Assembly: GCA_028279725.1 (NCBI GenBank)
Contig: JANQNE010000011.1
Coordinates: forward strand, 25,872 to 89,871
Length of the DNA stretch: 64,000 nt
Reading direction: 5' to 3'
DNA from: Candidatus Nanoarchaeia archaeon
GTDB lineage: Archaea > Nanobdellota > Nanobdellia > Woesearchaeales > JANQNE01
In this document: positions 11,164 to 37,287 of the stretch, piece after piece
Layout of the letters: every line of letters begins with the position of its first letter
How positions within the stretch are numbered: the first letter of the stretch is position 1
Program-made: the position numbers and the translations under genes
The notes under the pieces: model-generated
Told to the model about the DNA's origin: nothing
What the model saw: only the letters and a program-made list of their open reading frames with translations
Databases searched by the model: none

Positions 11164-11171
11164 CTTTAGGA

Positions 11172-14311: not shown

Positions 14312-14342
14312 CTTTTTAAATAGAGAGTTCTTGTTTTGTCCT

Positions 14343-16424: not shown

Positions 16425-16539
16425 TTACCAACTCGAGACGAAGTATACATTTCCTAGATATTATACAACAGAAACATATTTAAATAACTTGCAATTTTGT
16501 TTTTTATGGTATACATGCTAAATTTTGAGGGGGTTTTGA

Positions 16540-18120
16540 ATGGCAAAAGAGATAATCAATGATCCTTCTAGGACTTTTATGGAGTATAGATTCCTGCCAG
16601 GAGAGACTCCTCGGGATTGTACACCTGATAAGATCTCTTTAAGAACTCCACTGACAAAGTTTACTAAAGAGAGCGGTATGGAGAGTGCTAAAATCATACT
16701 TAATCTTCCTTTTATGTCTGCTGCTATGCAGTCTGTGACAGGGTCTGGACTTGCGATCGCTTTGGCCCAGAACGGTGGCATTGGTGTGCATTATTGCTCA
16801 CAGCCTGTTGAAGATGAAGCAAGAAAGGTTGCTGAAGTTAAGGGTGCTAAGGCTGGATTTGTAAAGCCAAAGACATTGTCTCCTAATGATACTGTTGAAG
16901 ATGCTTTTGAAAAAGCTGTCAAGGAAGGGTATTCGATATATCCTGTAATAGATGAGAATGGAGTATTGTTGGGTTCTGTAAATGTTAATTATCTTAAGAA
17001 CAGGATGGGAGATGAAAAGATATCTGATGTTATGAGGAAATTTATCCCGAAGGGCCTTGATGAGATAACATCTGAGATGAAAGCTAATAATGCGACAGAT
17101 GAAGAGATAATAAAGACAATAAGAGAATATATCACATTTGCTAAAGTGGGTATTGATTTAGAGGAAGCAAACAGGATCGTGGAGGAGAATAACTCTAAGT
17201 TTATCGCTATTGTCGGAGAGGATAATAAATTACATTCTTTAGTATTCAGAAAAGATATCTATAAGCATATAAGCCATCCTAAGGAGCTTATTGATGCTAA
17301 TAAGAGATATATCTGTGCAGCTGCTATCAATACACATGATTACAAAGAAAGAGTTCCTGCTTTAGTGAAAGCTGGAGTTGATATGATAGTTGTAGATTCG
17401 TCAGACGGCTATACTGAGTGGCAGAAAGAGGCTGTCCAGTTCTGCAAAGGAGAGTATCCGACAATACCTGTTATGGGAGGCAATATAATAACTGCTGAAG
17501 GATTCAGATATCTTGCAGATGCAGGTGTTGATGCTGTAAAGGTTGGAATGGGTGGCGGTTCTATATGTATAACTCAAGAACAAAAGGGGACTGGAAGAGG
17601 ACAGGCTGATGTTGTTGAAGAAGTCTGTGCTGAGAGAGATAAATATTATGAAGAAACAGGTGTTTATATTCCAATTATTTCTGATGGAGGCCATAGTTTT
17701 GCGAAAGATATGACTATGGCTTTGGCTTTTGGTGCTGATGCAATAATGTGCGGAAGGATGTTTGTTGGATGTGAGGAAAGCAATGCTCCGTTCCATCCAG
17801 AAGACAGGAAGTTCAAGCAGTATTGGGGAGAAGGACATTCAAGAGCTAAGGCCTGGAGACAGCAAAGATATGGCCAGGTAAGTTTTGATGAAGGGGTTGA
17901 TGGATTTGTTCCTTTTGTCGGAAAACTTAAGGAAAATGTTCTCGATGATATCACAAAGAAGATGATATCAACGATGGTTACGTGCGGATGCAAGAATCTG
18001 GATGAGCTTCATAAGAAAGCAAGAGTTAAGCTTATCTCTGAGCTTTCTATGAGAGAAGGCAAGCCGCATGATATCATATTACCAGAGAACATGACATATA
18101 AAGCCAGAAGGTGGGGTTGA
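16540..18120 (+). CDS. guaB: IMP dehydrogenase with CBS pair
   Basis: PFMSAAMQSVTG, VVDSSDGY, GMGGGSICITQEQKGTGRGQ (catalytic Cys loop), ISDGG. SD GAGGGGGT upstream. Confidence 0.9.
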   Translation: MAKEIINDPSRTFMEYRFLPGETPRDCTPDKISLRTPLTKFTKESGMESAKIILNLPFMSAAMQSVTGSGLAIALAQNGGIGVHYCSQPVEDEARKVAEVKGAKAGFVKPKTLSPNDTVEDAFEKAVKEGYSIYPVIDENGVLLGSVNVNYLKNRMGDEKISDVMRKFIPKGLDEITSEMKANNATDEEIIKTIREYITFAKVGIDLEEANRIVEENNSKFIAIVGEDNKLHSLVFRKDIYKHISHPKELIDANKRYICAAAINTHDYKERVPALVKAGVDMIVVDSSDGYTEWQKEAVQFCKGEYPTIPVMGGNIITAEGFRYLADAGVDAVKVGMGGGSICITQEQKGTGRGQADVVEEVCAERDKYYEETGVYIPIISDGGHSFAKDMTMALAFGADAIMCGRMFVGCEESNAPFHPEDRKFKQYWGEGHSRAKAWRQQRYGQVSFDEGVDGFVPFVGKLKENVLDDITKKMISTMVTCGCKNLDELHKKARVKLISELSMREGKPHDIILPENMTYKARRWG

Positions 18121-18124
18121 TCTT

Positions 18125-19855
18125 ATGATAACCAAAGAAGCACACCAACATATGAAGGATATCGGTGTTATTGAAGGATTAAATCGTGATATTTCTCAAG
18201 AATATGAGGTAACTTCTTTTGATGAGGCCTTGCTTCCTCTGATAGACAAGAATGATGTTTTGGTTGTAGCAGGCGGTTTTTTTGGTGATGAAGGGAAGGG
18301 AAAGATAACAGATGCTGTTGCTAATCACTCAAAGATCAAACTGATAATGAGATCAAATTCAGGAGAAAATGCAGGCCATACAGTCTATCATGATGGAGTA
18401 AAATATGTTTTCCATGTAGTTCCTTCAGGAATATTAGTTCCAGGCAAGTTAAATCTTATCGGTTCTGAGTGTGTTGTGGATCCTGTAAATCTTATGGGGG
18501 AGCTTTCCCAGCTTACTGAAAGAAATATAGATTACTCTGAAAAACTTTTTATAGCAAATCCACATATTGTCGCTCCATATCATAAGCTGATGGATCTTAT
18601 CCAGACTGCTTCAAATTCCTCCACATTAAGAGGCATATCTCCTATACATGCTTCAAAGGCGAAGAAAAGAGGGTTGAGGCTTGATGACATATACATGCCG
18701 GAAGAACATCAGAAGAAGATCATTGAGAAAGATATGGGAGATTATATCGGATTGATGGAAGTATTGGGAAAAAATCAAGAACAACTGCTGAAGTTTTGTG
18801 AAGAAGTGAATTCTGATGATAATGTTGTCATTCCGGAGCATGTAGTTGGTTTTCTTAAAGCAGATGATAAAGTAAGATATATTGTTGATCTTTTCAGAAA
18901 GACTGTTGTAGAAAATAAGCTCTTTCCTGAAAGGACGAAGAATATGGATCTAGTTGACGATACTTTGGAGAAGGGAGATAAGATGCTTGTTGAAGCAGCA
19001 CAAAGTTTTTTTCTTTCAAATAAGATAAAGACTCATTTCAGATCTGCTACTTCAGCTGATACAAGCGCAAGCGGGACTATCTCTGCAGCTAATTATAATA
19101 TTGCCAAATACAATACAGCAGTCATAAATGTAATCAAATTTGTATCTTCAAGAGTTGGCAGAGGAGAGAATCCTGTCGGTTTTGTGCCGCAGACCTTCTT
19201 TTCAGATCAGGGGATAACCACGTTAAATGAACTGAAAGGTGTGTGTGAAGATTTTGATGAGATACAAAAGCAGTTTATGGATTCTGTTGGAGAGAACGGA
19301 ATCTTGGATCCTACAACCTACAAAGATAAGGATGGAAAAGAGTATCCTATAGTTGTTGCTATGGCTATCGCTTCTTCAAAACACTATGGGGAAAGAGGAG
19401 CTACTACTAAAAAACCAAGGATTACTGGATTTATAGATTGTGTTGCTCATCACCTTGTCAATAAGAAGCAAGGTCCATATCTTTCTATATCTGCTATGGA
19501 TAGAGGAGATGACCTTGATAAAGTGGGATTGGTTATCGCTTATGTTATCTATGTTCCAGAAGGGAAGAGTAATCCTGAGTCTGAAGGAAAAGAATATAAG
19601 ACAGGAGATTTGATAAAAACAGGAGATCCTATGCCTAATGAACAGGTCTTGAAGTATGCTATCCCTATAATAAAAGTTATGAATGGGTGGAAGGACAGCC
19701 CTATTGCTGTTGATAAAAGAAGTGTGGATGACCCATTACCTAAATCAGTCCAGGATTATATTGCTGCATTAGAGCATTTTACTGGAGCTGAAGTTATATC
19801 TATTGGGAATGGAGCTGACACAAAGAACCTGATATACTTGAAAAAGAAAGCTTAA
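18125..19855 (+). CDS. purA: adenylosuccinate synthetase family protein, long and divergent (576 aa)
   Basis: GDEGKGKITD, GENAGHT, GATTKKPRITGFID and MNGWKD align to AdSS motifs. The GTYPxVTSS and TTGRxRR blocks are substituted and large insertions are present. Confidence 0.65.
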   Translation: MITKEAHQHMKDIGVIEGLNRDISQEYEVTSFDEALLPLIDKNDVLVVAGGFFGDEGKGKITDAVANHSKIKLIMRSNSGENAGHTVYHDGVKYVFHVVPSGILVPGKLNLIGSECVVDPVNLMGELSQLTERNIDYSEKLFIANPHIVAPYHKLMDLIQTASNSSTLRGISPIHASKAKKRGLRLDDIYMPEEHQKKIIEKDMGDYIGLMEVLGKNQEQLLKFCEEVNSDDNVVIPEHVVGFLKADDKVRYIVDLFRKTVVENKLFPERTKNMDLVDDTLEKGDKMLVEAAQSFFLSNKIKTHFRSATSADTSASGTISAANYNIAKYNTAVINVIKFVSSRVGRGENPVGFVPQTFFSDQGITTLNELKGVCEDFDEIQKQFMDSVGENGILDPTTYKDKDGKEYPIVVAMAIASSKHYGERGATTKKPRITGFIDCVAHHLVNKKQGPYLSISAMDRGDDLDKVGLVIAYVIYVPEGKSNPESEGKEYKTGDLIKTGDPMPNEQVLKYAIPIIKVMNGWKDSPIAVDKRSVDDPLPKSVQDYIAALEHFTGAEVISIGNGADTKNLIYLKKKA

Positions 19856-19865
19856 TGGTGAAAAG

Positions 19866-21701
19866 ATGAGTGCTGAAAAGATCCTTGTTTTAGATTTTGG
19901 AGGACAGTACACTCAGCTTATTGCCAAGATTGTGAGGCAGTGCAATGTTTTTTCTGAGATAAAGCCTCATGATTATCATTCTGAAGATATTGTAGGAGAT
20001 AATCCTAAAGGAATTATCTTATCTGGTGGGCCTGACAGTGTTTATGGTGATGGAGCTCCACAAATTGATAGGGAAATTCTTGAGTTAGGTATTCCTGTGC
20101 TAGGAATATGCTATGGCATGCAATTGATCAACTATACTCTGGGTGGTGGGATGATAAGAGGTGGAGATTCTATCAAAGAGTATGGGGAAAGTAGTGTGAT
20201 GGTGGAGAATGAGCATGATCTTTATTCTGGACTTAAAGAAAAGATAACTACCTGGATGAGCCATGGAGACAGTGTTGACGGAGGAGATCTTGCAAAAGGT
20301 TTTAGAGTTATAGGAAGGACTGACAATCATGTAGCTTCTATAGCGAATGATGATAAGAAGATTTATGGTGTACAGTTCCATCCTGAAGTTACTCATACTG
20401 TAAATGGAAAGGATATTGTCTCTAATTTTGTTCATAATATCTGCGGCTGTGGTGATGACTGGAATATGGGGAACTATATCGAGCAGTGCAAGAAATATGT
20501 CCAGAAAACAGTGGGGAAGAATGATGTAATCAATTTTGTAAGTGGTGGAGTTGATTCTACTTTTGTTGCTGCTGTTCTTTCTAAGACTGAGAACATCGGG
20601 AATGTGTATAATGTTTATATCGGAGCTTTGATGAGAAAGAATGAGAATAAAGAAGTTGTTAAAAGTATGGAGAAGGCTGGTGTGAAGAATCTTATTTTTA
20701 AAGAGTGTGAAGACAGGTTTATAGAAGCTGTCAGTAAGATGAGCGATCCTGAAGAGAAAAGGAAAGCTATAGGTGATCTTTTTGGGAAGATAATGCAGGA
20801 AGTGTGTGAAGAACTGAAATTAGATGCTGATAAGACTTTCTTAGGACAGGGGACATTGTATACAGATCAGATAGAAAGTGGCAAAGGTGTTGGTGATAAG
20901 GCTGATAATATCAAGTCTCATCATAATGTGGGATGTCCTTTTATAGAAGATATGAAGAAAAAGGGAAGGCTAGTTGAGCCGAATAATATGATATTCAAGG
21001 ATGAAGTTAGGAAGGCAGCAAAAGAGATAGGATTGCCTGAGTCGATATATGCAAGACAGCCATTTCCTGGTCCTGGAATAGGAATAAGGATTGTTGATGG
21101 TGTTGAGAATGTTGATCTGAGTGAAGTTAATGATAAAGTTAATGAAATTGCTAAGCAAGAGGGGTTGATCGGAGGAGTTGTTCCTGTGAAGACTGTTGGT
21201 GTACAGGGAGATGGAAGAACCTATACTTATCTTGCTGTCTTGAGGGGGGAGAGAAACTGGGATAAGATAAGGAAAGCTGCTAAAAGAATACCTCAGGAAG
21301 TAAGAGAAGTTAACAGGATTGTCTATGACCTGGGTAAGGAAGGAGATATTGATTTCAAAAGTACAGTTTCTACTAAAGTTAGCAGAGAGACTGTCGATCT
21401 GCTTAAGGATGTTGATCTTGAAGGAAGAAAGATAATTGATGAAAATGGTTTTAAGGATATAAGCCAGACAATATTTGTGTTGTTTGGATCTGACATGAAT
21501 AGTAAAGGGAAAAGAAGTGTTGCGTTGAGGGCTGTATCAACAGATGATTTTATGACAGTCAGACCAGTAAAAGTGGGTGATGGGTTCTTATCATGGGAAT
21601 GTCTTCAGCAGATCCATGATGTTCTATTGGATAAGTATAATGTCGGAGCGTTTGTCTATGATGTTACAGACAAGCCTCCTGCAACAACATGCTGGGAGTG
21701 A
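19866..21701 (+). CDS. guaA: GMP synthase (glutamine-hydrolysing), single fused polypeptide, 611 aa
   Basis: GATase LGICYGMQ and VQFHPEV. PP-loop FVSGGVDST. C-terminal PPATTCWE, matching the canonical PPATIEWE end. Confidence 0.9.
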   Translation: MSAEKILVLDFGGQYTQLIAKIVRQCNVFSEIKPHDYHSEDIVGDNPKGIILSGGPDSVYGDGAPQIDREILELGIPVLGICYGMQLINYTLGGGMIRGGDSIKEYGESSVMVENEHDLYSGLKEKITTWMSHGDSVDGGDLAKGFRVIGRTDNHVASIANDDKKIYGVQFHPEVTHTVNGKDIVSNFVHNICGCGDDWNMGNYIEQCKKYVQKTVGKNDVINFVSGGVDSTFVAAVLSKTENIGNVYNVYIGALMRKNENKEVVKSMEKAGVKNLIFKECEDRFIEAVSKMSDPEEKRKAIGDLFGKIMQEVCEELKLDADKTFLGQGTLYTDQIESGKGVGDKADNIKSHHNVGCPFIEDMKKKGRLVEPNNMIFKDEVRKAAKEIGLPESIYARQPFPGPGIGIRIVDGVENVDLSEVNDKVNEIAKQEGLIGGVVPVKTVGVQGDGRTYTYLAVLRGERNWDKIRKAAKRIPQEVREVNRIVYDLGKEGDIDFKSTVSTKVSRETVDLLKDVDLEGRKIIDENGFKDISQTIFVLFGSDMNSKGKRSVALRAVSTDDFMTVRPVKVGDGFLSWECLQQIHDVLLDKYNVGAFVYDVTDKPPATTCWE

Positions 21702-21703
21702 AA

Positions 21704-22183
21704 ATGGGAAAGAAAAAACTAGAATCTATGGTTAAGAGTAGTGTTAAGTATCTGATAGAAGGGGCAGTCTTGGCTGCGAAAGAAAGATATGACGGTGCGT
21801 TAGAACATAGGGCAGCTGAATATGCTGTTGAGAGAGAAGGAAAGCTGACAAAGGACCAATATGAATTCTTATTTCATTGCATACATTGGTTTCTATATTC
21901 AAGCCCTGGAGAATATGGACAAAAGAAGAGGCTTGATCGTACAGATGCAAGGAGAAGTGGTGATAAGCAGTATTGGAAATTGTTGAATCCACGTGAGTTC
22001 TTCAATAATGGCGATGGTCCTAGGAAGGATTTTGATAGGACAATGAACAGATTAGCTGAATGTGCGTATAGGCAGGAGAAAGACTGGTTTGACGGAAGAT
22101 ATGCCAGTTATATGGATAAAGGCGGAGAAATCAACAGAACAGAAAGAGTTAAATTGTTAAAATCACTCGATATCAAAGAGTAG
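21704..22183 (+). CDS. hypothetical protein embedded in the purine cluster
   Basis: Start moved to MGKKKLES, which has SD GGGAGTGA and follows the guaA stop by 2 nt. No recognisable motif. Its 3' end overlaps the convergent purM by 21 nt. Confidence 0.5.
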   Translation: MGKKKLESMVKSSVKYLIEGAVLAAKERYDGALEHRAAEYAVEREGKLTKDQYEFLFHCIHWFLYSSPGEYGQKKRLDRTDARRSGDKQYWKLLNPREFFNNGDGPRKDFDRTMNRLAECAYRQEKDWFDGRYASYMDKGGEINRTERVKLLKSLDIKE

Positions 22184-23281
22184 ATCTTCTTTATCTTTTC
22201 CTTTACTTTTTATTTTTATTTTGTTTTCTTCGATGACTTTGCCTGCAATCTGGGCTTTTATGTTGAACTTTGCTGCTTCCTGGATAACTTTTTCTGGCTC
22301 TGGTGTTATTATTGCTAAGCCTTGGCCCATGTTCCATGTCCTGTATGCTTCTTTGTCTGCTATGTTTCCTAGTTCCTGGCAATATTGCATAGCTTTGCAT
22401 GGTTCGAAAAGATTGTCTAGTTCAGCTCCATAACCTGATGGTTTTAGGACTCTGCCAAGTTTTCCTGGCAATCCGCCTCCTGTGATATGAGAGACACCAT
22501 GGATCTTACAGCATCCTTCTGTCTTGAAACCACCATGCATATGAATAACAGCTTTTGAATATATTGTTGAAGGTATGAGGACTAAATTTCCTAATTTTTC
22601 TCCTTCAAATTCAAAATTGTGCCATTCTGGACCATGTTTTTGTTCAAAAACCTTTCTTGTAAGAGATAATCCGTTTGATCTGAAGCCTTTTTCTTCAAGA
22701 ACAACAACAGAATCTCCTAGCTGAACTTCTTTTCCTGTGAAAAGCTTGTTTTTGTTTGCAAACCATGCTATGCTGGAGCACCAATTGTACTTGAACTTTC
22801 CATAACCACCAACACCATCTCCAAGTTCAGCTAATTCTCCGTTGATTACTGCAACATTTGCTGCATCAGCAGCTTTTACATAGCCTTCTGCAAGTTGTTT
22901 TAGCTGTTCTATGTGTGATTCGTTTTCTTTTCCTAAAGAATTAACGTCAAGAACACTTCCGATAAGGACTGGTTCTGCTCCTCTTACTATTGCATCATCA
23001 CAGACCATTGCAAAAAGATCAAAGGCTATTGTCTTATGGTTGTTCATCCTCTGTGCAATCTCTACTTTTGTTCCGACTCCGTCAAAACCTATGCACATAA
23101 GGCTTCCTTCAGGAAGATTTCCGATGTTAATGGCTCTGACTCCTGAGAAATCATCAAATGGAACGATGATCTCTCCGATATTGCCTTTTCTGTTATCAAA
23201 GGTAAGCTTTGCAGCTTTGTACAATATCTTTGATGCATCATCTCCAAGTTCGATGTTAACTCCTGAGTCTTTATAGTCCAT
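22163..23281 (-). CDS. purM: phosphoribosylformylglycinamidine cyclo-ligase (AIR synthetase)
   Basis: DYKDSGVNIELGD, GFDGVGTKVEIA and HITGGG match the PurM pattern. Confidence 0.9.
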   Translation of the reverse strand: MDYKDSGVNIELGDDASKILYKAAKLTFDNRKGNIGEIIVPFDDFSGVRAINIGNLPEGSLMCIGFDGVGTKVEIAQRMNNHKTIAFDLFAMVCDDAIVRGAEPVLIGSVLDVNSLGKENESHIEQLKQLAEGYVKAADAANVAVINGELAELGDGVGGYGKFKYNWCSSIAWFANKNKLFTGKEVQLGDSVVVLEEKGFRSNGLSLTRKVFEQKHGPEWHNFEFEGEKLGNLVLIPSTIYSKAVIHMHGGFKTEGCCKIHGVSHITGGGLPGKLGRVLKPSGYGAELDNLFEPCKAMQYCQELGNIADKEAYRTWNMGQGLAIITPEPEKVIQEAAKFNIKAQIAGKVIEENKIKIKSKGKDKEDLLFDIE

Positions 23282-23282
23282 A

Positions 23283-24782: not shown

Positions 24783-24806
24783 TTTTTCCTCCCCTATCCC
24801 TCTTTT

Positions 24807-25421
24807 TTATTTTTTGACTATAACTTTTCTTCCTTCAACCTTTATCTTTCCTTCTCCAAAAAGCTGTATAGCTTTAGGGTAAAGCTCTTTTTCTAATGTC
24901 TGGACCTTTTCTTTCAATGAATCTACTGTCTCGTCGTTCTCTATGTCTACTGTTCCCTGCATTATTATAGGTCCTGTGTCCATTCCTTCGTCAACAAAGT
25001 GGATTGTGCATCCGCTGACCTTACATCCATAGTTAAGGATGTCTTCATGTACTGACCTGTCCATTCCTGGGAATGAAGGCAGTAGTGAAGGATGAATGTT
25101 CATTATCCTGTCTTTATATTTGTTTGCAAACCATGGGCTAAAAAGACGCATATAGCCTACAAGGACTAAAAGTTCTACTTCTTCCTGGTCTAAGATCTCT
25201 GCAACTCTTTTGTCGTAGCTTTCTCTTGTGTCTTCATCTTTTTTGTACAATTCTATTCTTGTCTTGAATCCCTGGTTTTGTGCTCTTTCGATAGCATAGC
25301 ATTCTTTGTTTGCTAGGACAATCTTTAATTCTGCATCAAGCTCTTTGTTCTTTATAGCATCCATTATAGCCTGAAGATCTGTTCCGTTTGTTGATGCCAT
25401 TACAGCTATTTTTATCGTCAT
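24807..25421 (-). CDS. purN: phosphoribosylglycinamide formyltransferase (folate-dependent)
   Basis: [53 protein letters not shown]. Confidence 0.9.
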
Positions 25422-27445: not shown

Positions 27446-27446
27446 T

Positions 27447-28169: not shown

Positions 28170-28738
28170 TATTTACACCTTATCACTCTTTTTTCGGTAA
28201 TTATCATATCCATCGGGATGTCATAATCTTCTGTTGGTATATTTTTTGTTATCTGTTCTTCAAATGCAAGCCCTATTTTTAGGGAGTTTCTGTCTTTCAG
28301 GAATCTGTCGTAAAAACCTTTTCCGAATCCTATCCTTGCTCCGCTTTGGTCAAAAGCGATGCCTGGGACGAGGACGATGTCCAGGTTTTCTTTGTATTCC
28401 TCTTTTTTGATTGGTTCGAGTACTCCGAAGTTCCCTTCTTTTAGGTCATTGAAGTCAGATAATTTTGATATCTTTATGTTGTTTTCTTCGACAAATGGGA
28501 TGATTACTGTCTTTTGCTGCAGTTGTTCTTTGATTAATTCTATTGTGTTTACCTCACTTTTTAGTGAAAGGTAAGACATCACTATGTTTGCTTTTTTGAA
28601 CTCATCCAGATCTTTTAGATGTTGGATGATTGTCTTGCTTTTTTCTGAGATCTGTTCTTCCGGTATGTTATCTCTTATGGACCTTATGGTGTTTCTGATC
28701 TCTTGTTTGTTTATTCTGTTCATAGTGCGATTCTTCAC
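28169..28738 (-). CDS. 5-formyltetrahydrofolate cyclo-ligase
   Basis: LVPGIAFDQSGARIGFGKGFYDRFL is the MTHFS signature. Confidence 0.8.
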   Translation of the reverse strand: MKNRTMNRINKQEIRNTIRSIRDNIPEEQISEKSKTIIQHLKDLDEFKKANIVMSYLSLKSEVNTIELIKEQLQQKTVIIPFVEENNIKISKLSDFNDLKEGNFGVLEPIKKEEYKENLDIVLVPGIAFDQSGARIGFGKGFYDRFLKDRNSLKIGLAFEEQITKNIPTEDYDIPMDMIITEKRVIRCK

Positions 28739-31404: not shown

Positions 31405-31406
31405 TT

Positions 31407-32231
31407 TTATCTATCCTTAAAATAGTCAACAGCATTCTGGAAAATCCTGAAGTTTGAGCTAATTAAATCAGGGATCTCTTTGTTTTCTCTTTTAGCGATC
31501 TCTTTTTTCAGATGGAATTCCGGCTCGCTGATTGAGTATATTGCTCTTTCTGGATGAGGCATCATTCCCATTAGCCTTCCAGTCTTGTCGCAGATAGCTG
31601 CTATATCATTTAAAGCTCCATTAGGGTTGATAGGGTAAACATTTTCTGCATCATCTCCTGCTTCATTGCAGTACGTGAAAACTATCTGGTTGTTCTTTTT
31701 TAATTCTTCAAGTGTGTTTTTATCGCATGTGAATCTTCCTTCTCCATGAGCTATAGGGAGATGTGTCTGTTCTATTCCTTTTGTGAATATACAATTAGAA
31801 TTGTTGTTTTTTATGTTTACCCATAAGCATTCATATCTGTTGCTTGTGTTTGATTCTAATGAGCTGATTCTTTTTCCGTAGTCTCCATCTGTAGCGAATA
31901 ATCCTAAATGGGTCATGACCTGGAATCCGTTGCAGACTCCGAGTATCAATTTTCCTGAGTTTATGAACTCTAAAAGATCTTCCCAAAGGTTGTTTTTTAT
32001 CTTGTTTGCAAAAGCATTTCCTGAACCTGTGTCATCTCCATACGAGAATCCTCCTGGAAACATAATTATATTGTAGTCAGACATCTTTTTCTTTTTTGAG
32101 ATAAGGTCGTTTATGTGGACAATTTCGCATTCAGCTCCTGCTTTTTCAAAAGCATGAGCACTTTCTTTCTCGCAGTTGATCCCATATCCTGACATAATCA
32201 ATACTTTTGGTATCATATTAATAGTCCTCAA
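31407..32231 (-). CDS. purQ: phosphoribosylformylglycinamidine synthase, glutaminase subunit
   Basis: FPGGFSYGDD, GVCNGFQ (catalytic Cys), MMPHPER. Confidence 0.9.
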   Translation of the reverse strand: MRTINMIPKVLIMSGYGINCEKESAHAFEKAGAECEIVHINDLISKKKKMSDYNIIMFPGGFSYGDDTGSGNAFANKIKNNLWEDLLEFINSGKLILGVCNGFQVMTHLGLFATDGDYGKRISSLESNTSNRYECLWVNIKNNNSNCIFTKGIEQTHLPIAHGEGRFTCDKNTLEELKKNNQIVFTYCNEAGDDAENVYPINPNGALNDIAAICDKTGRLMGMMPHPERAIYSISEPEFHLKKEIAKRENKEIPDLISSNFRIFQNAVDYFKDR

Positions 32232-35178
32232 ACCTTTTTTTGTATATTTTTTCTAATTTTTCAATGTCTGTCTTGATTACTTGTTCTTCTTTGTTGTTTA
32301 TTATGAACTCATTGTCTTCTTTTACTGTTCCTATCTTTGCTATGTCGAAGTCGCTCATTGCTTTTACAAATTCATCCTGGTCTTTAGGGTTGATCGTTAC
32401 GATGAATCTGGACTGTGATTCTGAATAGAATATCTTTTCTATTGGCAGGTTATCGTTTGGTGCTTTGCTTAAGTCTGTTTCCGCTCCAAGCTGTCCTGCG
32501 ATTGCCATCTTTGCTAATGTGATCAGTAGTCCGCCTTGATTGACTGGAGCACATGCACTGAACATTCCTTTTTTGTTTAACTGGAACATTGTTTCGTAAA
32601 GTTTTCTTGCTTTTTGTGCATCTACTTTTGGTGACTTTGCTCCGAACTTATCGAATGCTCTATAGAACTCGCTTCCACCACATTCGTCTTTCGTCATTCC
32701 TATGGTGTATATCAGATCTCCCGGAAGCTTGAAGTCCATCGTTATTGTATCTTTTGCATTGTCGATTATGCTTATGCTTGAGATCATCAATGTTGGAAGT
32801 ACTGAAATCTTTATTGAGTTATCTTTTTCGTCAAATCCTTTGAAATCGTTGAACATGCTGTCTTTTCCTGAGATAAATGGTGTTTTGTAGATGGTTGCAT
32901 AATCATAGCATGCTTGTGCTGCGTCTTTTAGCTGGCCCATACGTTCTGGCTCGTTTGAACTGCACCAGCAGAAGTTGTCCATGAGTGCAAGATGGTCTAT
33001 GTTTCCGCCGACAGCAACACAGTTTCTTATTGAAGTGTCTATAGCACATGCTGCCATATCATAGCAGTTTATCTCGCTTAGTCTTGGATAAAGGCATTGT
33101 GACATAACAGCTGCTTTATTGCTGCTGAACAAAGGCTTTACAACTGAAGCTGCTCCGTTGACTCTGCCTTTTCCCTGTAATGGTTTTATGACTGAGTTAT
33201 TCTGAACTTCATGATCATACTGTTTTGATATAAATTCAAAGCTGCAGTTGTTGTGATTTCCCAGGATCTTTTCGAACAGTGCTTTTTGGTTGTCTATTGT
33301 TATTTTTGGCTCTTCTGTCCTGTAAGGATAAGGTTTTGTGATAAGTTTTCTTTTTGGAAGTCCGTCATGTAAGAATTCCATGTCTAAGTTGAATATTTCT
33401 TTTCCGTTGAAATTCACTATAGCTTTTTTTGTGTCGTTGAAATTTCCAATTACTGTTGATTCAACTCCTCTGCTTTCCATAAGGTCCATGAATTCTTTTA
33501 GCTTGTTGTCTGGAACTGATAATGTCATACGTTCCTGTGATTCTGAAATCCATGTTTCCCAAGGCGGAAGTCCTGGATATTTTAGAGGAACTTTTTCTAA
33601 GTCTACTATGAAACCACCACATTCTCTTGCCATCTCTGCAACTGAACAGGATAATCCTCCTGCTCCATTGTCTGTTATGCTATTGTAAAGTTCTTTATCT
33701 CTTGCTTCTTTTACAATTGCATCCGAGAGTTTCTTTTGAGTGATCGGATCTCCTATCTGAACAGCTGTTGCTGGTGAGCCTTCATCCATCTCTTCTGATG
33801 AGAATGTTGCTCCGTGAATACCATCTTTTCCAACTCTTCCGCCGATCATGACAATGTTGTCTCCTGGCTGAGCCTGTTTGTCCTGGCTTGGATTTCCGTT
33901 AGGAAGTTTTCTTGGTAAAAGTCCTACAGTTCCTACGAATATGAGAGGTTTTCCCTTGTAGCAATCGTCGAAGTATACAAATCCTGTTGGTGTTGGAATA
34001 CCTGAGCAGTTTCCTCCTACATTTACTCCATGTATTACTCCATCCATGATCTTTCTTGGTGTTAAAGCTGGGTTTGTCTTGTTCTTTCCTCTGTAAATGA
34101 ATGTCTTGTCTTCTGGTCTTCCTAAGCAGAAGCCGTATTTGTTAACTATTGGAAGTGCGCCCATACCGAAGCCGATAGTGTCTCTGTTAACTCCTACAAT
34201 TCCAGTTATAGCTCCTCCAAATGGATCTAATGCTGAAGGACTATTATGTGTTTCAGCTTTGTCTGTGATCATCCAGTCGTCATTGAATATTATTCCTCCT
34301 GAATTGTCTTTGAATACTGATAAGCAGAAATCTTTATCTCCTAAGTCTTCTCTTACTTTTATTGTCGCTGCTTTGATGAACTTTTTGTATATTCCTTCTT
34401 TTATGTCATCTATCTCTCCTGCAAATAAAGTGTGTTTGCAGTGTTCTGACCATGTTTGTGCGATTGATTCCAGCTCAATATCAGTTGCTTTTCTTCCTTC
34501 TTTTTTGTAATAAGCCTGTATTGCGTGTAAGTAGTCTAAGTCTAAAGCTAAAGGGCCTCTTCTTGTGTTTGTTACAGGATCAGGAATTCCTTTTTTTCCA
34601 AGTTCTGTAAGAATTTCATCACTGACATTCAGATCAATTGCAATTACGTTTTGTTCTTCTTTTATGTTTACTTTTGGAACAATATAATCCATGCCGTTGT
34701 CTTCAGTGTATTGTTCTGCTGATTTGATGTGGAAACGTTCTATTAAAGTGTTGATTAGTTCTTTTGCAATTATTTCTATGTCTTCTTTCTTTAGGTTGTC
34801 TGATTTTATTAAGATCAGTTTAGAAGTGAATACTTTGTTTCTTCCAATGTTGATCTTGAATAGGTCGTTTATGATTTCTGTAGTTGTGTTTGCTACATTG
34901 TCTGTAACTCCTGGCAAGAATCCCAGTTCTAATGCCCAGCTAAACTCTTTTTTTGATGGTGAGTTGATCCTTGGAGTTTCTACGATAGGATTGTGTAATG
35001 CGTTAGCTATTGCTGTTATTTGTTCTGCTGAGAAATCATACTGGATAGTGTATACTTTGCTTACTTCAATAGAGGTTTCGAAGCCCAGCGAGAACAGCTT
35101 TTTCTCTAATATTTTGGCTTCAGAGCCCTTCTCCTTGGAATCTATAGAAATCCTAAATATCTGTCCATTTTCTTGCAT
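32218..35178 (-). CDS. purL: phosphoribosylformylglycinamidine synthase II with an N-terminal PurS-like extension (no glutaminase domain)
   Basis: Start placed at MQENGQIF, with SD AGGGGGTTGATC just upstream; the track ORF extends to 35214. ETHNSPSALDPFGGA, PurL PurM-like repeats, and an extra N-terminal domain of roughly 200 aa. Confidence 0.85.
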   Translation of the reverse strand: MQENGQIFRISIDSKEKGSEAKILEKKLFSLGFETSIEVSKVYTIQYDFSAEQITAIANALHNPIVETPRINSPSKKEFSWALELGFLPGVTDNVANTTTEIINDLFKINIGRNKVFTSKLILIKSDNLKKEDIEIIAKELINTLIERFHIKSAEQYTEDNGMDYIVPKVNIKEEQNVIAIDLNVSDEILTELGKKGIPDPVTNTRRGPLALDLDYLHAIQAYYKKEGRKATDIELESIAQTWSEHCKHTLFAGEIDDIKEGIYKKFIKAATIKVREDLGDKDFCLSVFKDNSGGIIFNDDWMITDKAETHNSPSALDPFGGAITGIVGVNRDTIGFGMGALPIVNKYGFCLGRPEDKTFIYRGKNKTNPALTPRKIMDGVIHGVNVGGNCSGIPTPTGFVYFDDCYKGKPLIFVGTVGLLPRKLPNGNPSQDKQAQPGDNIVMIGGRVGKDGIHGATFSSEEMDEGSPATAVQIGDPITQKKLSDAIVKEARDKELYNSITDNGAGGLSCSVAEMARECGGFIVDLEKVPLKYPGLPPWETWISESQERMTLSVPDNKLKEFMDLMESRGVESTVIGNFNDTKKAIVNFNGKEIFNLDMEFLHDGLPKRKLITKPYPYRTEEPKITIDNQKALFEKILGNHNNCSFEFISKQYDHEVQNNSVIKPLQGKGRVNGAASVVKPLFSSNKAAVMSQCLYPRLSEINCYDMAACAIDTSIRNCVAVGGNIDHLALMDNFCWCSSNEPERMGQLKDAAQACYDYATIYKTPFISGKDSMFNDFKGFDEKDNSIKISVLPTLMISSISIIDNAKDTITMDFKLPGDLIYTIGMTKDECGGSEFYRAFDKFGAKSPKVDAQKARKLYETMFQLNKKGMFSACAPVNQGGLLITLAKMAIAGQLGAETDLSKAPNDNLPIEKIFYSESQSRFIVTINPKDQDEFVKAMSDFDIAKIGTVKEDNEFIINNKEEQVIKTDIEKLEKIYKKRFEDY

Positions 35179-35269
35179 GATCAACCCCCTATAGTTAGCT
35201 GAAAAATGACTCATATATAAATATTATGGCTACCAGCCAGTACTAAAGATATACTCAAGAATATAGTTT

Positions 35270-35704
35270 TTACCCTCTAAGTGAAGGATGTAATGGGTAA
35301 GAAGGTGTTATGTATGTGTCTCCTCTTGATTCTACTTTTATCAATGTGTTATCAGCTACCCTAAAATCTAACGGGTCTTTGATTGCATTATCCCTGGCTT
35401 CGAATTTTCCAAGATAACATTCTTGAACTGCTTGTTTTAAGTGCGGTTCACAAGCAAAGATTTCAGCATAAGGTGTTGCTTCCATGATTGCCTTTGCAAC
35501 ATCAAGACTTGAGCTTCCTTCTTTTACAATGTTTGCCAGATCAACCATATCATAGAGCTTAATTGTTCCTGCTGGTTCTTTTTCACACTTCTTACATTCT
35601 CCATAAGGAAGATGCATAGTCTCGGTCAACCTATTTCTATCCATCGCTTTTCTAAGTGGAATGGATTTTTCCAAACCTTTTATGAATTCTCCTAAATCTG
35701 ACAT
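35270..35704 (-). CDS. hypothetical protein between purL and purB
   Basis: 144-aa ORF with CKKC and several Cys. No recognisable family. Confidence 0.5.
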   Translation of the reverse strand: MSDLGEFIKGLEKSIPLRKAMDRNRLTETMHLPYGECKKCEKEPAGTIKLYDMVDLANIVKEGSSSLDVAKAIMEATPYAEIFACEPHLKQAVQECYLGKFEARDNAIKDPLDFRVADNTLIKVESRGDTYITPSYPLHPSLRG

Positions 35705-35787
35705 AGAACAAAAGGATTACTAAGTTGTATATAAATATTATTGTTTTTGAGTATTCTAGAATGGTAACGTTACGTTAATCGTAAGAA

Positions 35788-37227
35788 CTAAACATTAATT
35801 GATGTGTTTGATTTTCCGACCAATTCTTTGTATTTTTCCAGAACTGGTTTGACTTCTTTCTGGATGAATTCTTCTGTCTGTTCTTTTGCTGCTCCTGTGA
35901 ACCTTACTGGGTTGTCTAATAGTGAGTTTAGGTAGTTTTCATCTACTGGTATTGACTGGTCTTCTGCTAATCTTTTGAATAAGTCATTCGGTTTTCCTTC
36001 TAGTTTTACTGATTTTGCTGCATCTACTGAATGTTTCTTTATTATTTCGTGCATCTCTTGTCTGTCATGTCCTTGTTTTGCCAATTCCATCAGTATAACT
36101 TCTGTTGACATGAACGGCAGTTCTGCATCAAGATGTTTTTTGATCTGAGCTGGATAGACAACCATGCCGTCTGTTATGTTTTGATATAGTTTTAAGATTG
36201 CGTTTGCTAGAAGGAAAGACTGAGGTATACTGATCCTTCTTATGGATGAATCATCTAGTGTTCTTTCAAACCACTGGTTAGCGTGAATATGTGAGAAATC
36301 TATTTGAAGATTGATGAGTTTTCTTGCCAATGCAGTCATACGTTCAGAACGCATTGGGTTCCTTTTGTATGCCATAGCTGAAGATCCTGTCTGTGATTTT
36401 GCAAATGGCTCTTCCATTATCTTAAGATTTGACATAAGTCTCATGTCAACTGCGAATTTATGCGCTGATTCTGCGATTCCTGACAGAATTTTTGCAACTA
36501 TAGTGTCGAATTTTCTTGTGTAAGTCTGTCCTGTAGTTGGATATGATTCTTCAAAACCTAATTTTTTGCTTACTAAGCTGTCTAATTGCTTAACTTTTTC
36601 ATAATTGTCGTTGAAAAGTTCTGTGTATGATGCCTGAGTTCCTACTGTTCCTTTTGCTCCTCTTGCTTTTAATTCTATCTGTTCTAATTGTTTTAGGTCT
36701 AGTAAAAGATCTTGAATGTAAAGTGTGATTCTTTTTCCTATGGTTGTCGGCTGTGCTGGCTGGTAATGTGTGTATCCTAGTGTTGCTAATGATTTGTTTT
36801 CTTCAGCAAATTTGGATAAGTTGTTTATTGTGTTTATTAATCCTGCTTTTATGATCTTCAGTGCTTCTCTTATTTGGATTAGATCTGTGTTGCAGCAGAC
36901 GAACTGAGAAGTTGCTCCTAAATGGATTATTCCTTTTGCTTTTGGGCAGTGTGTTCCGTATTCAAACACATGAGCCATGACGTCGTGTCTGATTTCTTTT
37001 TCTTTTTCTTTTGCGATGTCATAGTTGATTGTGTTCTGAGCAGCTTTTAGCTCTTCGATCATCTCTGGAGTGATCTGGGAGAGTCCTAGTTCCATCTGAG
37101 ATTCAGCTAAAGCTATCCAGCACTTTCTCCATGTTGAGAACTTGAAATTATCTGAGAATATCTGCTGCATCTCTTTGTCAGTATATCTTCCTACTAACGG
37201 ATCCTGGTAAACTTCGTGATTGCTCAT
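35788..37227 (-). CDS. purB: adenylosuccinate lyase
   Basis: GATSQFV, TGSSAMAYKRNPMRSE (fumarate-lyase signature). 479 aa. Confidence 0.9.
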   Translation of the reverse strand: MSNHEVYQDPLVGRYTDKEMQQIFSDNFKFSTWRKCWIALAESQMELGLSQITPEMIEELKAAQNTINYDIAKEKEKEIRHDVMAHVFEYGTHCPKAKGIIHLGATSQFVCCNTDLIQIREALKIIKAGLINTINNLSKFAEENKSLATLGYTHYQPAQPTTIGKRITLYIQDLLLDLKQLEQIELKARGAKGTVGTQASYTELFNDNYEKVKQLDSLVSKKLGFEESYPTTGQTYTRKFDTIVAKILSGIAESAHKFAVDMRLMSNLKIMEEPFAKSQTGSSAMAYKRNPMRSERMTALARKLINLQIDFSHIHANQWFERTLDDSSIRRISIPQSFLLANAILKLYQNITDGMVVYPAQIKKHLDAELPFMSTEVILMELAKQGHDRQEMHEIIKKHSVDAAKSVKLEGKPNDLFKRLAEDQSIPVDENYLNSLLDNPVRFTGAAKEQTEEFIQKEVKPVLEKYKELVGKSNTSINV

Positions 37228-37287
37228 TTTACCCCCTATGTCTGAAGAGTAGATGGTTGATATTTAAATGTTTTGAGAAAAATAAGG

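What the first reader, a model, noticed from the sequence alone, without database searches (positions are those of the whole stretch)
16540..37227. Complete folate-dependent purine supercluster in an archaeal genome, with no PurK, PurT, PurP or PurO
Within 21 kb, on two converging strands, lie guaB, purA, guaA, purM, purC-E, purN, folD, purH (two genes), a 5-formyl-THF cyclo-ligase, purF-D, purQ, purL(S) and purB. Every step to IMP, AMP and GMP is covered using formyl-THF enzymes (PurN, PurH), with FolD and MTHFS for cofactor supply. Many archaea instead use the formate/ATP enzymes PurT and PurP, and PurO. The clustering and the fused architectures suggest acquisition as a block, or a lineage-specific consolidation.
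Basis: partly seen in the sequence, partly recalled or inferred. Interest (0 to 1): 0.5.

Follow-up and report, generated by a model that had tools for sequence, protein, structure and literature searches.

The report
Purine-synthesis gene supercluster in a Woesearchaeon
A tiny-celled (DPANN, Woesearchaeota) archaeon carries every gene for making purine nucleotides from scratch in one 21-kb block; the pathway is ordinary, but two enzyme pairs are fused, and two enzymes have their closest outside relatives in protists such as trypanosomes and dinoflagellates.

Summary
Window 16540-37227 holds intact guaB-purA-guaA (+) converging on purB, PurL, purQ, purF::purD, MTHFS, IMPCH, AICARFT, folD, purN, purC::purE and purM (-). 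These cover every step from PRPP to IMP, AMP and GMP by the formyl-THF route. No PurK, PurT, PurP or PurO is present in the 64 kb.

The genome is archaeal, a DPANN Woesearchaeote. PurK looks dispensable because the PurE domain is class II-like.

"Acquired as a block" is not supported. The same operon order recurs in relatives 63-82% identical. GC and GC3 match the flanks. Archaeal TATA-like boxes (TTTAWATA) mark the four unit starts and are absent inside the cluster. "Lineage-specific consolidation" fits.

Absence of PurT is not a lineage trait: a 74%-identical relative has purT beside the same operon.

Gene ancestry is mosaic:
- PurF, PurL and PurQ group with archaea.
- PurA, GuaA and GuaB are non-classical-archaeal types.
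- The 576-aa PurA is 49% identical end-to-end to Trypanosoma ADSS. The euglenozoan clade nests inside the archaeal radiation (NJ, 98% bootstrap).
- PurC::PurE is 51% identical to a dinoflagellate/chromerid fusion.

This is an ordinary pathway in an unusual architecture and host, with an unexpected protist link.

The parts
16479..16486 (+). TATA-box-like TTTAAATA, 53 nt upstream of the guaB ATG; a GAGGGGG Shine-Dalgarno-like run lies before the ATG
   Evidence: The motif occurs 38 times against 14.3 expected, and there is no copy inside 16487-35213.
16540..18120 (+). guaB, IMP dehydrogenase with CBS domain (526 aa), PRK07107 subfamily
   Evidence: Pfam IMPDH 2e-94. NCBIfam PRK07107 518 bits. 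The best solved relative is T. foetus IMPDH 1ak5 at 412 bits, against 246 bits for the next distinct enzyme, T. maritima IMPDH.
18125..19855 (+). purA, long-form adenylosuccinate synthetase (576 aa)
   Evidence: Pfam Adenylsucc_synt 1-415/416. The GDEGKGK and NAGHT motifs are present. It is 49% identical over 581 aa to T. brucei ADSS.
19866..21701 (+). guaA, single-chain glutamine-hydrolysing GMP synthase (611 aa), not the split archaeal GuaAa/GuaAb
   Evidence: NCBIfam PRK00074 503 bits, above the 400 cut-off; PDB matches.
21689..22183 (+). ORF of 164 aa, unknown function, at the convergence point; not conserved in relatives
   Evidence: No family. No tblastn hit in loci, and absent from L090.
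22163..23281 (-). purM, AIR synthetase (372 aa)
   Evidence: AIRS and AIRS_C domains; TIGR00878 197 bits over the full length.
23283..24782 (-). purC::purE fusion (499 aa): long-type SAICAR synthetase joined to a class II-like AIR carboxylase
24807..25421 (-). purN, folate-dependent GAR formyltransferase
   Evidence: TIGR00639 195 bits, above the 150 cut-off.
25418..26287 (-). folD, methylene-THF dehydrogenase / methenyl-THF cyclohydrolase
   Evidence: Both THF_DHG_CYH domains are present; PRK10792 368 bits, above the 355 cut-off.
26288..27445 (-). purV / PurH1, stand-alone AICAR formyltransferase (385 aa)
   Evidence: AICARFT_IMPCHas positions 62-310; PRK00881 positions 194-510.
27447..28169 (-). 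purJ / PurH2, stand-alone IMP cyclohydrolase (MGS-like, 240 aa)
   Evidence: MGS domain; PRK00881 positions 27-200.
28169..28738 (-). 5-formyl-THF cyclo-ligase (MTHFS)
   Evidence: TIGR02727 170 bits, above the 85 cut-off.
28735..31404 (-). purF::purD fusion (889 aa): amidophosphoribosyltransferase (N-terminal MCG, catalytic Cys) joined to GAR synthetase
   Evidence: TIGR01134 440 bits and TIGR00877 541 bits, both above cut-off. 33 full-length fused homologue clusters. Sequence.
31407..32231 (-). purQ, FGAM synthase glutaminase subunit
   Evidence: GATase_5 1e-82; TIGR01737 206 bits, above the 178 cut-off.
32218..35214 (-). mdPurL: FGAM synthase II with a ~220-aa PurS-like N-terminal extension. 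The true start is probably Met13 at 35178, because the annotated ATG overlaps the TATA-like box.
   Evidence: TIGR01736 501 bits over residues 236-997. Weak PurS match at residues 31-83, E=6e-4. Start region.
35214..35221 (-). TATA-box-like TTTATATA at the head of the purL-to-purM unit (11 genes, gaps of -14 to +24 nt)
35270..35704 (-). ORF of 144 aa, unknown function, between purB and purL; it has its own TATA-like box at 35728-35735; not conserved in relatives
35788..37227 (-). purB, adenylosuccinate/SAICAR lyase (479 aa)
   Evidence: TIGR00928 368 bits, above the 326 cut-off.
37261..37268 (-). TATA-box-like TTTAAATA, 33 nt upstream of the purB ATG

Best explanation
This is the native de novo purine-nucleotide supercluster of a Woesearchaeal (DPANN) archaeon.

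Transcription units (inferred from motif positions, not mapped). Four TATA-box-headed units are proposed:
- guaB-purA-guaA
- purB
- a 144-aa ORF
- one ~13-kb unit running purL-purQ-purF::purD-MTHFS-purJ-purV-folD-purN-purC::purE-purM

Chemistry (inferred from family membership).
1. PRPP goes to phosphoribosylamine and then GAR on the fused PurF::PurD.
2. PurN formylates GAR using 10-formyl-THF.
3. mdPurL with PurQ makes FGAM, and PurM makes AIR.
4. The class II-like PurE domain carboxylates AIR directly with CO2, so no PurK or ATP is needed.
5. The fused long-type PurC makes SAICAR, and PurB makes AICAR.
6. Stand-alone AICARFT and IMPCH finish IMP.
7. PurA with PurB gives AMP, and GuaB with GuaA gives GMP.
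8. FolD regenerates 10-formyl-THF from methylene-THF, and MTHFS rescues 5-formyl-THF.

Role of the fusions (inferred). They plausibly hand labile intermediates (phosphoribosylamine, CAIR) between consecutive active sites.

Origin. The block was assembled and inherited within Woesearchaeales. This is shown by synteny, composition and promoters. It was assembled from genes of mixed ancestry, which is inferred from NJ trees and best-hit patterns.
For: Gene identities.

Operon packing: gaps of -21 to +24 nt from purM to purL.

Promoter-like motif: TTTAWATA occurs 38 times against 14.3 expected. There is none inside the cluster, and there is one upstream of each of the four units.

PurE class:
- It scores 89 and 81 bits to the T. 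denticola and human class II enzymes, against 58 bits or less to class I.
- The SAHK and CPP motifs are invariant across the family.

Lineage:
- Relatives at 71-75% identity are named Woesearchaeota or Nanoarchaeota.
- The window carries a Dph6_archaeal equivalog.

Synteny: conserved in L001, L086, L088 and L090, and partly in L087, L002, L007, L008, L020 and L089.

Composition: GC 0.377 against 0.368 in the flanks, and GC3 0.319 against 0.339.

Gene trees and best hits:
- PurF falls in a DPANN-dominated clade.
- PurL and PurQ have archaeal best labelled hits.

Literature:
- Kinetic evidence for phosphoribosylamine channelling between PurF and PurD, with no stable complex found (PMC10912719).
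- mdPurL and class II PurE without PurK are already known in archaea (PMC3261824).
- Split purV/purJ genes are already described (PMC6486802).
Against: - No biochemical or expression data exist for this cluster.
- The PurE 70s loop is AGGTDALSG, not the canonical class II AGRSN(G/A)L(G/S)(P/G), so the AIR carboxylase assignment is by similarity only.
- PurA, PurM, PurC, PurE, PurL and GuaB score below NCBIfam equivalog cut-offs.
- RSCU correlation between cluster and flanks is 0.87, against 0.96 between the two flank halves. This is a mild difference that may reflect expression level.
- The rest of the genome was not seen, so PurK/PurT, folate synthesis or uptake, and the C1 source (GlyA, Fhs) are unknown.
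- Trees are neighbour-joining only, and taxon labels are those given by submitters.
Confidence: 0.85

Rival explanations
1. Recent block acquisition. The 21-kb cluster is a horizontally transferred island, of bacterial or eukaryote-like origin, that landed recently in this genome.
For: - PurA, GuaA and GuaB are bacterial/eukaryote-type rather than the short or split archaeal types.
- PurB is 50% identical to a Longimicrobiales sequence, against 27% to another DPANN sequence.
- RSCU correlation is slightly lower than the flank control.
- Some Woesearchaeales clades are inferred to have expanded by HGT (PMC13473441).
Against: - The same order occurs in relatives at 63-74% PurFD identity, and the convergent guaB arm plus upstream flank synteny in one at 82% PurA identity.
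- GC and GC3 equal the flanks.
- The cluster uses the same TTTAWATA promoter motif as flanking housekeeping genes.
- PurF, PurL and PurQ group with archaea.
- Individual genes have different nearest outsiders, so there is no single donor.
Confidence: 0.05
2. Pure vertical inheritance. The whole cluster descends unchanged from the free-living DPANN ancestor, with no transfers.
For: - Reconciliation work infers de novo purine synthesis in the last DPANN common ancestor (PMC13473441).
- Looser pur/folate clusters exist in Iainarchaeota, in a DPANN MAG (L002) and in a single-cell archaeon.
- PurF falls in a DPANN clade.
Against: - Other DPANN loci carry canonical ~400-450-aa PurA, split GuaA, and unfused PurE/PurC.
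- Nearest outsiders differ by gene: Gemmatimonadota for PurB, and the T. foetus-type subfamily for GuaB.
- The purJ-purV pair is present or absent within the operon among close relatives.
Confidence: 0.15
3. Eukaryote-to-archaeon transfer. PurA and PurC::PurE were taken by Woesearchaeota from protists.
For: - End-to-end identity is 49-51% to T. brucei ADSS and to the Vitrella PurC-PurE.
- Eukaryote hits rank among the archaeal ones.
Against: - PurA: in an outgroup-rooted NJ tree, the eukaryote clade nests inside the archaeal radiation. Eukaryotes plus one Woesearchaeote exclude nine other labelled Woesearchaeota in 98/100 bootstraps, and reciprocal monophyly occurs in 0/100.
- PurC::PurE: the eukaryote and archaeal clades are each monophyletic. 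Prokaryotic lineages with DPANN-style pur clusters (L089, L084) lie around them, and the direction is unresolved.
Confidence: 0.1
4. Mis-binned or non-archaeal DNA. The window is from a CPR or other bacterium, since some homologues are labelled Patescibacteria, Bacteroidota, Elusimicrobiota or Lactobacillales.
For: Submitter labels on P0175, P0199, P0411, L003 and L026.
Against: - The window itself encodes a Dph6_archaeal equivalog at 275 bits, above the 197 cut-off.
- It also encodes class I LysRS and an archaeal-type ProRS C-terminal domain.
- It has a 102-nt tRNA match that the bacterial-mode ARAGORN run missed, possibly intron-bearing.
- It has TATA-box promoters.
- A relative's contig carries RFC subunits.
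- Most labelled relatives are Woesearchaeota or Nanoarchaeota.
Confidence: 0.02

Closest known systems
Bacillus-type pur operon (purEKBCSQLFMNHD)
   Same: One co-oriented, tightly packed block covers nearly all steps to IMP. It is folate-dependent through PurN and PurH chemistry, and it has small PurL plus PurQ. Comparable blocks were seen in the Virgibacillus, Lentibacillus, Alistipes and Actinomycetota loci.
   Different: - There is no purK and no separate purS.
- PurE is class II-like and fused to PurC.
- PurF is fused to PurD.
- purH is split in two.
- folD and MTHFS sit inside the operon.
- guaB-purA-guaA adjoin it.
- It has archaeal TATA boxes and no purine or ZTP riboswitch.
Animal PAICS (bifunctional SAICAR synthetase / AIR carboxylase)
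   Same: The domain order is the same, PurC then PurE. The PurE domain is closest to class II enzymes including human PAICS, at 81 bits. No PurK is needed.
   Different: The PurC domain is the long yeast/Mycobacterium type (3r9r, 1a48). PAICS matches only in the PurE part. The 70s loop is AGGTDALSG rather than AGRSNGLGP. This is therefore an independent, or very anciently diverged, fusion.
Treponema denticola class II PurE (3rg8) and the class II PurE of Archaeoglobi
   Same: It is the best solved-structure match, at 89 bits. It shares the SAHK, ALSG and CPP motifs. Class II PurE without PurK is already known in archaea (PMC3261824).
   Different: Here the domain is fused to PurC. The loop residues are G-T-D where class II has R-S-N.
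mdPurL of Methanomicrobiales and Methanococcus (Brown et al. 2011, PMC3261824)
   Same: It has ~200 extra N-terminal residues in place of PurS, a separate PurQ, and no purS gene found nearby.
   Different: It belongs to a different lineage. Direct relatedness to the methanogen mdPurL was not tested.
Split purH genes, purV (AICARFT) and purJ (IMPCH) (Cruz et al. 2019, PMC6486802)
   Same: Two adjacent genes encode exactly the two PurH domains.
   Different: The gene order is purJ then purV, which matches the domain order of PurH. The pair is present or absent within the operon among close relatives.
Kinetoplastid adenylosuccinate synthetase (e.g. T. brucei, ~600 aa)
   Same: It is 49% identical over 581 aa with only 2% gaps, has the same long architecture, and shares the GDEGKGK and NAGHT motifs.
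   Different: It is a eukaryotic nuclear gene used in purine salvage. Here the gene sits in an archaeal de novo cluster.
Halobacterial folate-dependent purine pathway
   Same: These are archaea that use PurN and PurH1 with tetrahydrofolate (PMC3261824).
   Different: Halobacteria have a PurN-PurH1 fusion, PurK and PurO. None of these is present here.

Membership tests
Complete de novo purine pathway (PRPP to IMP, AMP, GMP) | A gene for each of steps 1-10 plus PurA, GuaB and GuaA | tested here: met
   All were found as intact ORFs. The PurS role is assigned to the PurL N-terminal extension on a weak match only, E=6e-4.
Folate-dependent route | PurN-type GAR formyltransferase and PurH-type AICAR formyltransferase rather than PurT/PurP | tested here: met
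   PurN TIGR00639 is above cut-off. An AICARFT domain is present. No PurT or PurP was found in the window.
Folate-dependent route | The organism makes or imports tetrahydrofolate (folP/folK/folC/folA or a transporter) and has a C1 source (GlyA or Fhs) | not testable with these tools
Relatives L088 and L002 carry SHMT in the cluster.
Class II PurE (AIR carboxylase) | Greater sequence similarity to characterised class II than to class I enzymes | tested here: met
   89 and 81 bits to T. denticola and human, against 58 bits or less to class I.
Class II PurE (AIR carboxylase) | Class II signature motifs: SAHK in the 40s loop, AGRSN(G/A)L(G/S)(P/G) in the 70s loop, and CPP. The motif definitions come partly from my own knowledge and partly from the alignments. 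| tested here: inconclusive
   SAHK and CPP are present and invariant. The 70s loop is AGGTDALSG, invariant in 80 archaeal and 39 eukaryote sequences. Intermediate loops such as AGMSDALSG exist in other fusions.
Class II PurE (AIR carboxylase) | Direct CO2-dependent carboxylation of AIR without PurK/ATP | not testable with these tools
   This needs an enzyme assay or complementation.
Animal PAICS | The PurC domain is homologous to the animal short SAICAR synthetase type and fused N-terminal to PurE | tested here: not met
   The domain order is the same. However, PAICS chains match only residues 352-498, while the PurC part matches the long 3r9r/1a48 type.
mdPurL | ~200-aa N-terminal extension on small PurL, a separate PurQ, and no purS gene | tested here: met
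   PurL equivalog models align from residue 236. purQ is adjacent. Two bacterial PurS queries find nothing in the window, which is a weak test.
Bacterial pur operon regulation | Purine or ZTP riboswitch, or PurR/PurBox control | tested here: not met
   The Rfam gathering scan of the window finds only a tRNA. PurBox was not searched.
Archaeal transcription unit | TATA-box-like element ~25-55 nt upstream of the first gene, and none within the unit | tested here: met
   The TTTAWATA pattern and its enrichment, with sequence views. TSS was not mapped.
Woesearchaeota / Woesearchaeales (DPANN) | Phylogenetic placement by conserved markers | tested here: inconclusive
   Placement rests on submitter names of syntenic relatives plus archaeal hallmarks in the window. 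No marker-gene tree was built.

The most novel reading that the evidence does not exclude
Woesearchaeota-like DPANN archaea were gene donors to protists. The long-form adenylosuccinate synthetase of kinetoplastids and diplonemids (a trypanosome salvage enzyme, also carried by Bodo saltans virus) would derive from within the Woesearchaeal PurA radiation. The dinoflagellate/chromerid PurC-PurE fusion would share a recent common origin with the Woesearchaeal one. The cluster would then be a living archive of the prokaryotic source of several atypical protist purine enzymes. GuaB, which belongs to the T. foetus IMPDH subfamily, is a further lead. Separately, the natural PurF::PurD fusion would be a covalent version of the long-postulated phosphoribosylamine channelling complex.
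Probability: 0.45. Interest if true: 0.65.

Novelty: new variant of a known kind. Interest (0 to 1): 0.42.

Why it matters
- DPANN archaea are usually described as unable to make purines (PMC8091004, PMC11606122). This lineage keeps the whole pathway, plus pyrB-pyrI nearby, in one compact block. That bears on how host-dependent such Woesearchaeota really are.
- A natural PurF::PurD fusion gives a tractable protein for testing phosphoribosylamine channelling. That idea has rested on kinetics alone, because no stable PurF-PurD complex was ever found (PMC10912719).
- The PurC::PurE fusion carries an invariant AGGTDALSG loop and so widens the class I / class II PurE picture.
- The specific kinship of PurA with trypanosome ADSS, and of PurC::PurE with the dinoflagellate/chromerid enzyme, suggests archaeon-protist gene flow. 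It also offers prokaryotic models for parasite enzymes that have no solved structure.

Tried and rejected
- Exact-sequence lookup of the window's own contig failed, although the protein is listed on a 240-kb NCBI contig. The rest of the genome therefore could not be inspected.
- Cluster-member lookups gave almost no organism names.
- Rfam found no riboswitch.
- The sigma-70 promoter scan was at the chance level, 47 sites against 47.4 expected, and was ignored. Terminator-like hits were not followed.
- Literature searches found no description of a PurF-PurD fusion, of the protist PurC-PurE fusion, or of an archaeal link for kinetoplastid ADSS. Absence from this library does not prove novelty.
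- The genome-contig scan did not return the close relatives (>60% identity). It returned distant ones with fused or adjacent purF and purD in Bathyarchaeia and Iainarchaeota. Single-HSP matches suggest separate PurF-PurD fusions in Bathyarchaeia, but this was not checked ORF by ORF.
- PurS was searched only with two bacterial PurS sequences by tblastn, which is a weak test.
- The direction of the PurC::PurE archaeon-eukaryote relationship could not be resolved.
- I considered filing PurC::PurE under PAICS and rejected this.
- I considered PurZ for the odd PurA and rejected it: the score is 71 bits against a 300 cut-off.
- No structure prediction was run.

Full report

Yes. ORF listing with Pfam and NCBIfam gives the following genes.

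Plus strand:
- guaB 16540-18120
- purA 18125-19855
- guaA 19866-21701

Minus strand:
- purM 22163-23281
- a purC::purE fusion 23283-24782
- purN 24807-25421
- folD 25418-26287
- a stand-alone AICAR formyltransferase 26288-27445
- a stand-alone IMP cyclohydrolase 27447-28169
- 5-formyl-THF cyclo-ligase 28169-28738
- a purF::purD fusion 28735-31404
- purQ 31407-32231
- a 998-aa PurL 32218-35214
- purB 35788-37227

PurN, PurD, PurF, PurQ, PurB, GuaA, FolD and MTHFS pass NCBIfam equivalog cut-offs. PurA, PurM, PurC, PurE, PurL and GuaB hit the correct families over their full length but below cut-off, so they are divergent members.

Two small ORFs in the span have no family and no tblastn match in related loci. 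They are 164 aa at 21689-22183 and 144 aa at 35270-35704.

All scanned window ORFs of >=130 aa, which leaves out a few antisense overlaps, showed no PurK, PurT, PurP or PurO family. The only ATP-grasp proteins are a Ddl-like and a RimK-family ligase.

**2. Whose genome is it?**

It is archaeal, most likely a Woesearchaeote (DPANN; Nanoarchaeota/Nanobdellota). The window encodes:
- an archaeal Dph6 equivalog
- class I LysRS and an archaeal-type ProRS
- a 102-nt tRNA match, longer than the 71-position model and so possibly intron-bearing, seen by Rfam but missed by the ARAGORN run

Syntenic homologues of PurF::PurD, PurC::PurE and PurA at 50-75% identity are named Candidatus Woesearchaeota or Nanoarchaeota by their submitters. 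A few carry bacterial labels (Patescibacteria, Bacteroidota, Elusimicrobiota single-cell genome, Lactobacillales MAG). I regard these as probable mis-bins, but I did not test that.

**3. Anatomy and likely operation**

Genes from purM to purL are separated by -21 to +24 nt.

The archaeal TATA-like octamer TTTAWATA occurs 38 times in the window, against 14.3 expected; 0 of 100 shuffles reach 38. Most copies I compared with the ORF map lie just upstream of gene starts. There is no copy between 16487 and 35213.

Copies sit before four starts:
- guaB, at 16479-16486
- purB, at 37261-37268
- the 144-aa ORF, at 35728-35735
- purL, at 35214-35221

I therefore infer four transcription units, one of them an ~13-kb, 11-gene unit. 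None has been mapped.

The box at purL overlaps the annotated ATG, so the real start is probably Met13 at 35178.

The chemistry follows from family membership and is standard. 10-formyl-THF supplies C8 through PurN and C2 through AICARFT. FolD regenerates it, and MTHFS recycles 5-formyl-THF.

**4. Why no PurK?**

The PurE domain scores 89 bits to T. denticola class II PurE and 81 bits to human PAICS. Its best class I match scores 58 bits or less. It has the class II-type SAHK and CPP motifs.

Its 70s loop is AGGTDALSG rather than AGRSN(G/A)L(G/S)(P/G). That loop is invariant in 80 archaeal and 39 eukaryotic family members. Other PurC-PurE fusions show intermediate loops.

I read it as a class II-like AIR carboxylase. 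The activity is inferred, not shown. Class II PurE without PurK is already known in Archaeoglobi (PMC3261824).

**5. The fusions and the split gene**

PurF::PurD:
- It is one ORF. The N-terminus reads MCG, which places the catalytic Cys correctly. Cysteines lie where the B. subtilis Fe-S ligands are, a placement I made from memory.
- 33 homologue clusters share the architecture, down to 40% identity.
- Single-frame matches spanning both halves also occur in Bathyarchaeia at ~30% identity.
- In the PurF tree the fused groups are separated by unfused sequences. The fusion was therefore probably made or broken more than once.
- E. coli PurF and PurD show kinetic evidence of phosphoribosylamine channelling, but no stable complex was found (PMC10912719). 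A covalent fusion is a plausible natural solution. This is inference.

PurC::PurE:
- It has the PAICS domain order.
- Its PurC is the long yeast/Mycobacterium type, and PAICS matches only the PurE part. It is not a PAICS orthologue.

PurL:
- It matches the "mdPurL" described in methanogens (PMC3261824).
- It has a weak PurS-like signal in the extension.

Split purH:
- It corresponds to the published purV/purJ genes (PMC6486802).

**6. Block acquisition or lineage feature?**

It is a lineage feature.

| Locus | Identity to window | Gene order |
|---|---|---|
| L001 | 63% (PurFD) | purL-purQ-purFD-MTHFS-purJ-purV-folD-purN-purCE-purM-purB |
| L088 | 74% (PurFD), GCA_019322535.1 | same core |
| L086 | 71% (PurFD) | same core, but lacks purJ-purV |
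| L090 | 82% (PurA) | same core, but lacks purJ-purV |

L090 also reproduces the convergent guaB-purA-guaA arm. It reproduces the upstream flank too: serA, three FemAB-like genes, Ddl and RimK.

Looser purine/folate clusters occur in other DPANN loci (L002, L007, L008, L020, L089).

Composition matches. GC is 0.377 against 0.368 in the flanks, and GC3 is 0.319 against 0.339. RSCU correlation is 0.87, against 0.96 between the two flank halves.

L088 additionally carries three genes at the operon edges:
- a bona fide purT (PRK09288, 480 bits, above the 339 cut-off)
- a second PurF-like gene
- SHMT

So "no PurT" is a property of this window, not of the lineage.

**7. Where do the genes come from?**

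Ancestry is mixed.

- **PurF** falls in a DPANN-dominated clade.
- **PurL and PurQ** have archaeal best labelled hits.
- **PurB** is closest to Gemmatimonadota-group sequences, at 50%.
- **GuaA** is the single-chain form, whereas another DPANN locus has the split archaeal form.
- **GuaB** belongs to the PRK07107 subfamily. Its best solved relative by far is Tritrichomonas foetus IMPDH.

**PurA** gave the most unexpected result.
- It is 576 aa long.
- Beyond Woesearchaeota, its full-length relatives are the ~600-aa ADSS of Trypanosoma, Bodo, Neobodo, Angomonas and a probable diplonemid, plus Bodo saltans virus.
- It is 49% identical to T. brucei ADSS over 581 aa, with 2% gaps.
- In an NJ tree rooted with canonical PurA, the eukaryote clade nests within the archaeal radiation.
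- In 100 bootstraps, eukaryotes plus one labelled Woesearchaeote exclude nine other labelled Woesearchaeota 98 times. Reciprocal monophyly never appears.
- This favours transfer from archaeon to euglenozoan.

**PurC::PurE** has a large eukaryote sister group.
- Members include Vitrella, a dinoflagellate, MMETSP and EukProt transcripts, and many mRNA-sized contigs, all at ~50% identity.
- Both clades are monophyletic. Their position relative to other prokaryotic fusions is unresolved.

These trees are distance-based and rely on sparse labels. They are leads, not conclusions.

**8. Comparison with what is known, and verdict**

The pathway, class II PurE without PurK, mdPurL, split PurH and folate use in some archaea are all documented.

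Three things I did not find described:
- this particular architecture (PurF::PurD, the AGGTDALSG-type PurC::PurE, and folD plus MTHFS inside the operon)
- its presence as a conserved supercluster in Woesearchaeota
- the protist affinities of PurA and PurC::PurE

DPANN are generally reported to lack purine synthesis (PMC8091004, PMC11606122). The DPANN ancestor is, however, inferred to have had it, and some Woesearchaeales clades are inferred to have expanded by HGT (PMC13473441).

I rate the finding a new variant of a known kind.

Noticed in passing
window 18125-19855 (purA); P0504, P0466, P0497 and others: The long-form PurA is 49% identical end-to-end to Trypanosoma brucei ADSS. It is also found in Bodo, Neobodo, Angomonas, a probable diplonemid and Bodo saltans virus. 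The eukaryote clade nests inside the Woesearchaeal radiation in bootstrapped NJ trees.
   Followed up: partly
window 23283-24782 (purC::purE); P0241, P0223, P0208 and others: The fusion has a ~50%-identical eukaryote sister clade (Vitrella, a dinoflagellate, MMETSP/EukProt). Both clades share the invariant PurE loop AGGTDALSG. The direction of transfer is unresolved.
   Followed up: partly
P0178, P0186, P0188, P0200, P0201, P0242: Larger fusions exist in the same family: PurC + formyltransferase + PurE, PurC + PurE + PurQ-like GATase_5, and a tandem double PurC-PurE of 1068 aa. PurE-then-PurC orders also exist (P0273, P0299, P0308).
   Followed up: no
L088 4800-6092 (-), 2655-4103 (-), 19224-20480 (+): A 74%-identical Woesearchaeal relative has three extra genes at the edges of the same operon: a true purT, a second divergent PurF-like amidotransferase, and SHMT.
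   Followed up: partly
window 14331-16424 (+): A 697-aa ORF fuses an AsnB-like glutamine amidotransferase/asparagine synthase to an archaeal diphthine-ammonia ligase (Dph6 equivalog). It may be a glutamine-fed diphthamide synthetase. It is absent at this position in relative L090.
   Followed up: no
window 7748-12215 (-); L090 1617-5935: A conserved run holds a D-Ala-D-Ala-ligase-like ATP-grasp gene, three FemAB/LPG-synthase-C-like or GNAT genes, and a CxxCxxCC protein. This suggests peptide-bridge or cell-envelope peptide synthesis in a DPANN archaeon.
   Followed up: no
window, 38 sites: TTTAWATA is 2.7-fold enriched, and most copies sit 10-55 nt upstream of ORF starts. It serves as a usable promoter marker for this genome. 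It suggests several annotated starts are a few codons too early, for example purL 35214 and the TTG at 14331.
   Followed up: partly
window 59835-59936 (+): A 102-nt tRNA match, longer than the 71-position model and so possibly intron-bearing, is found by Rfam but not by ARAGORN.
   Followed up: no
window 53124-54496 (+): pyrB-pyrI (aspartate carbamoyltransferase catalytic and regulatory chains) is present, so at least part of de novo pyrimidine synthesis is encoded too.
   Followed up: no
window 16540-18120 (guaB): This IMPDH is far closer to Tritrichomonas foetus IMPDH (412 bits) and Listeria Lmo0132 than to the next distinct solved IMPDH (246 bits or less). This is a third possible protist link, and it was not examined phylogenetically.
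   Followed up: no
L003, L026, P0175, P0199, P0411: MAGs or single-cell genomes labelled Lactobacillales, Elusimicrobiota, Patescibacteria and Bacteroidota carry DPANN-type fused purF::purD, purC::purE or long purA. Mis-binning or real transfers would both explain this.
   Followed up: no
L012, L016-L019, L023, L027, L029, L031, L050: Bathyarchaeia and a Nitrososphaerota MAG have a single-frame PurF-PurD match of ~960 aa at ~30% identity. It forms a separate PurF clade, which suggests an independent fusion.
   Followed up: partly
window 41910-45212 (+): A 1100-aa ORF has only a weak response-regulator receiver match and is otherwise unknown.
   Followed up: no
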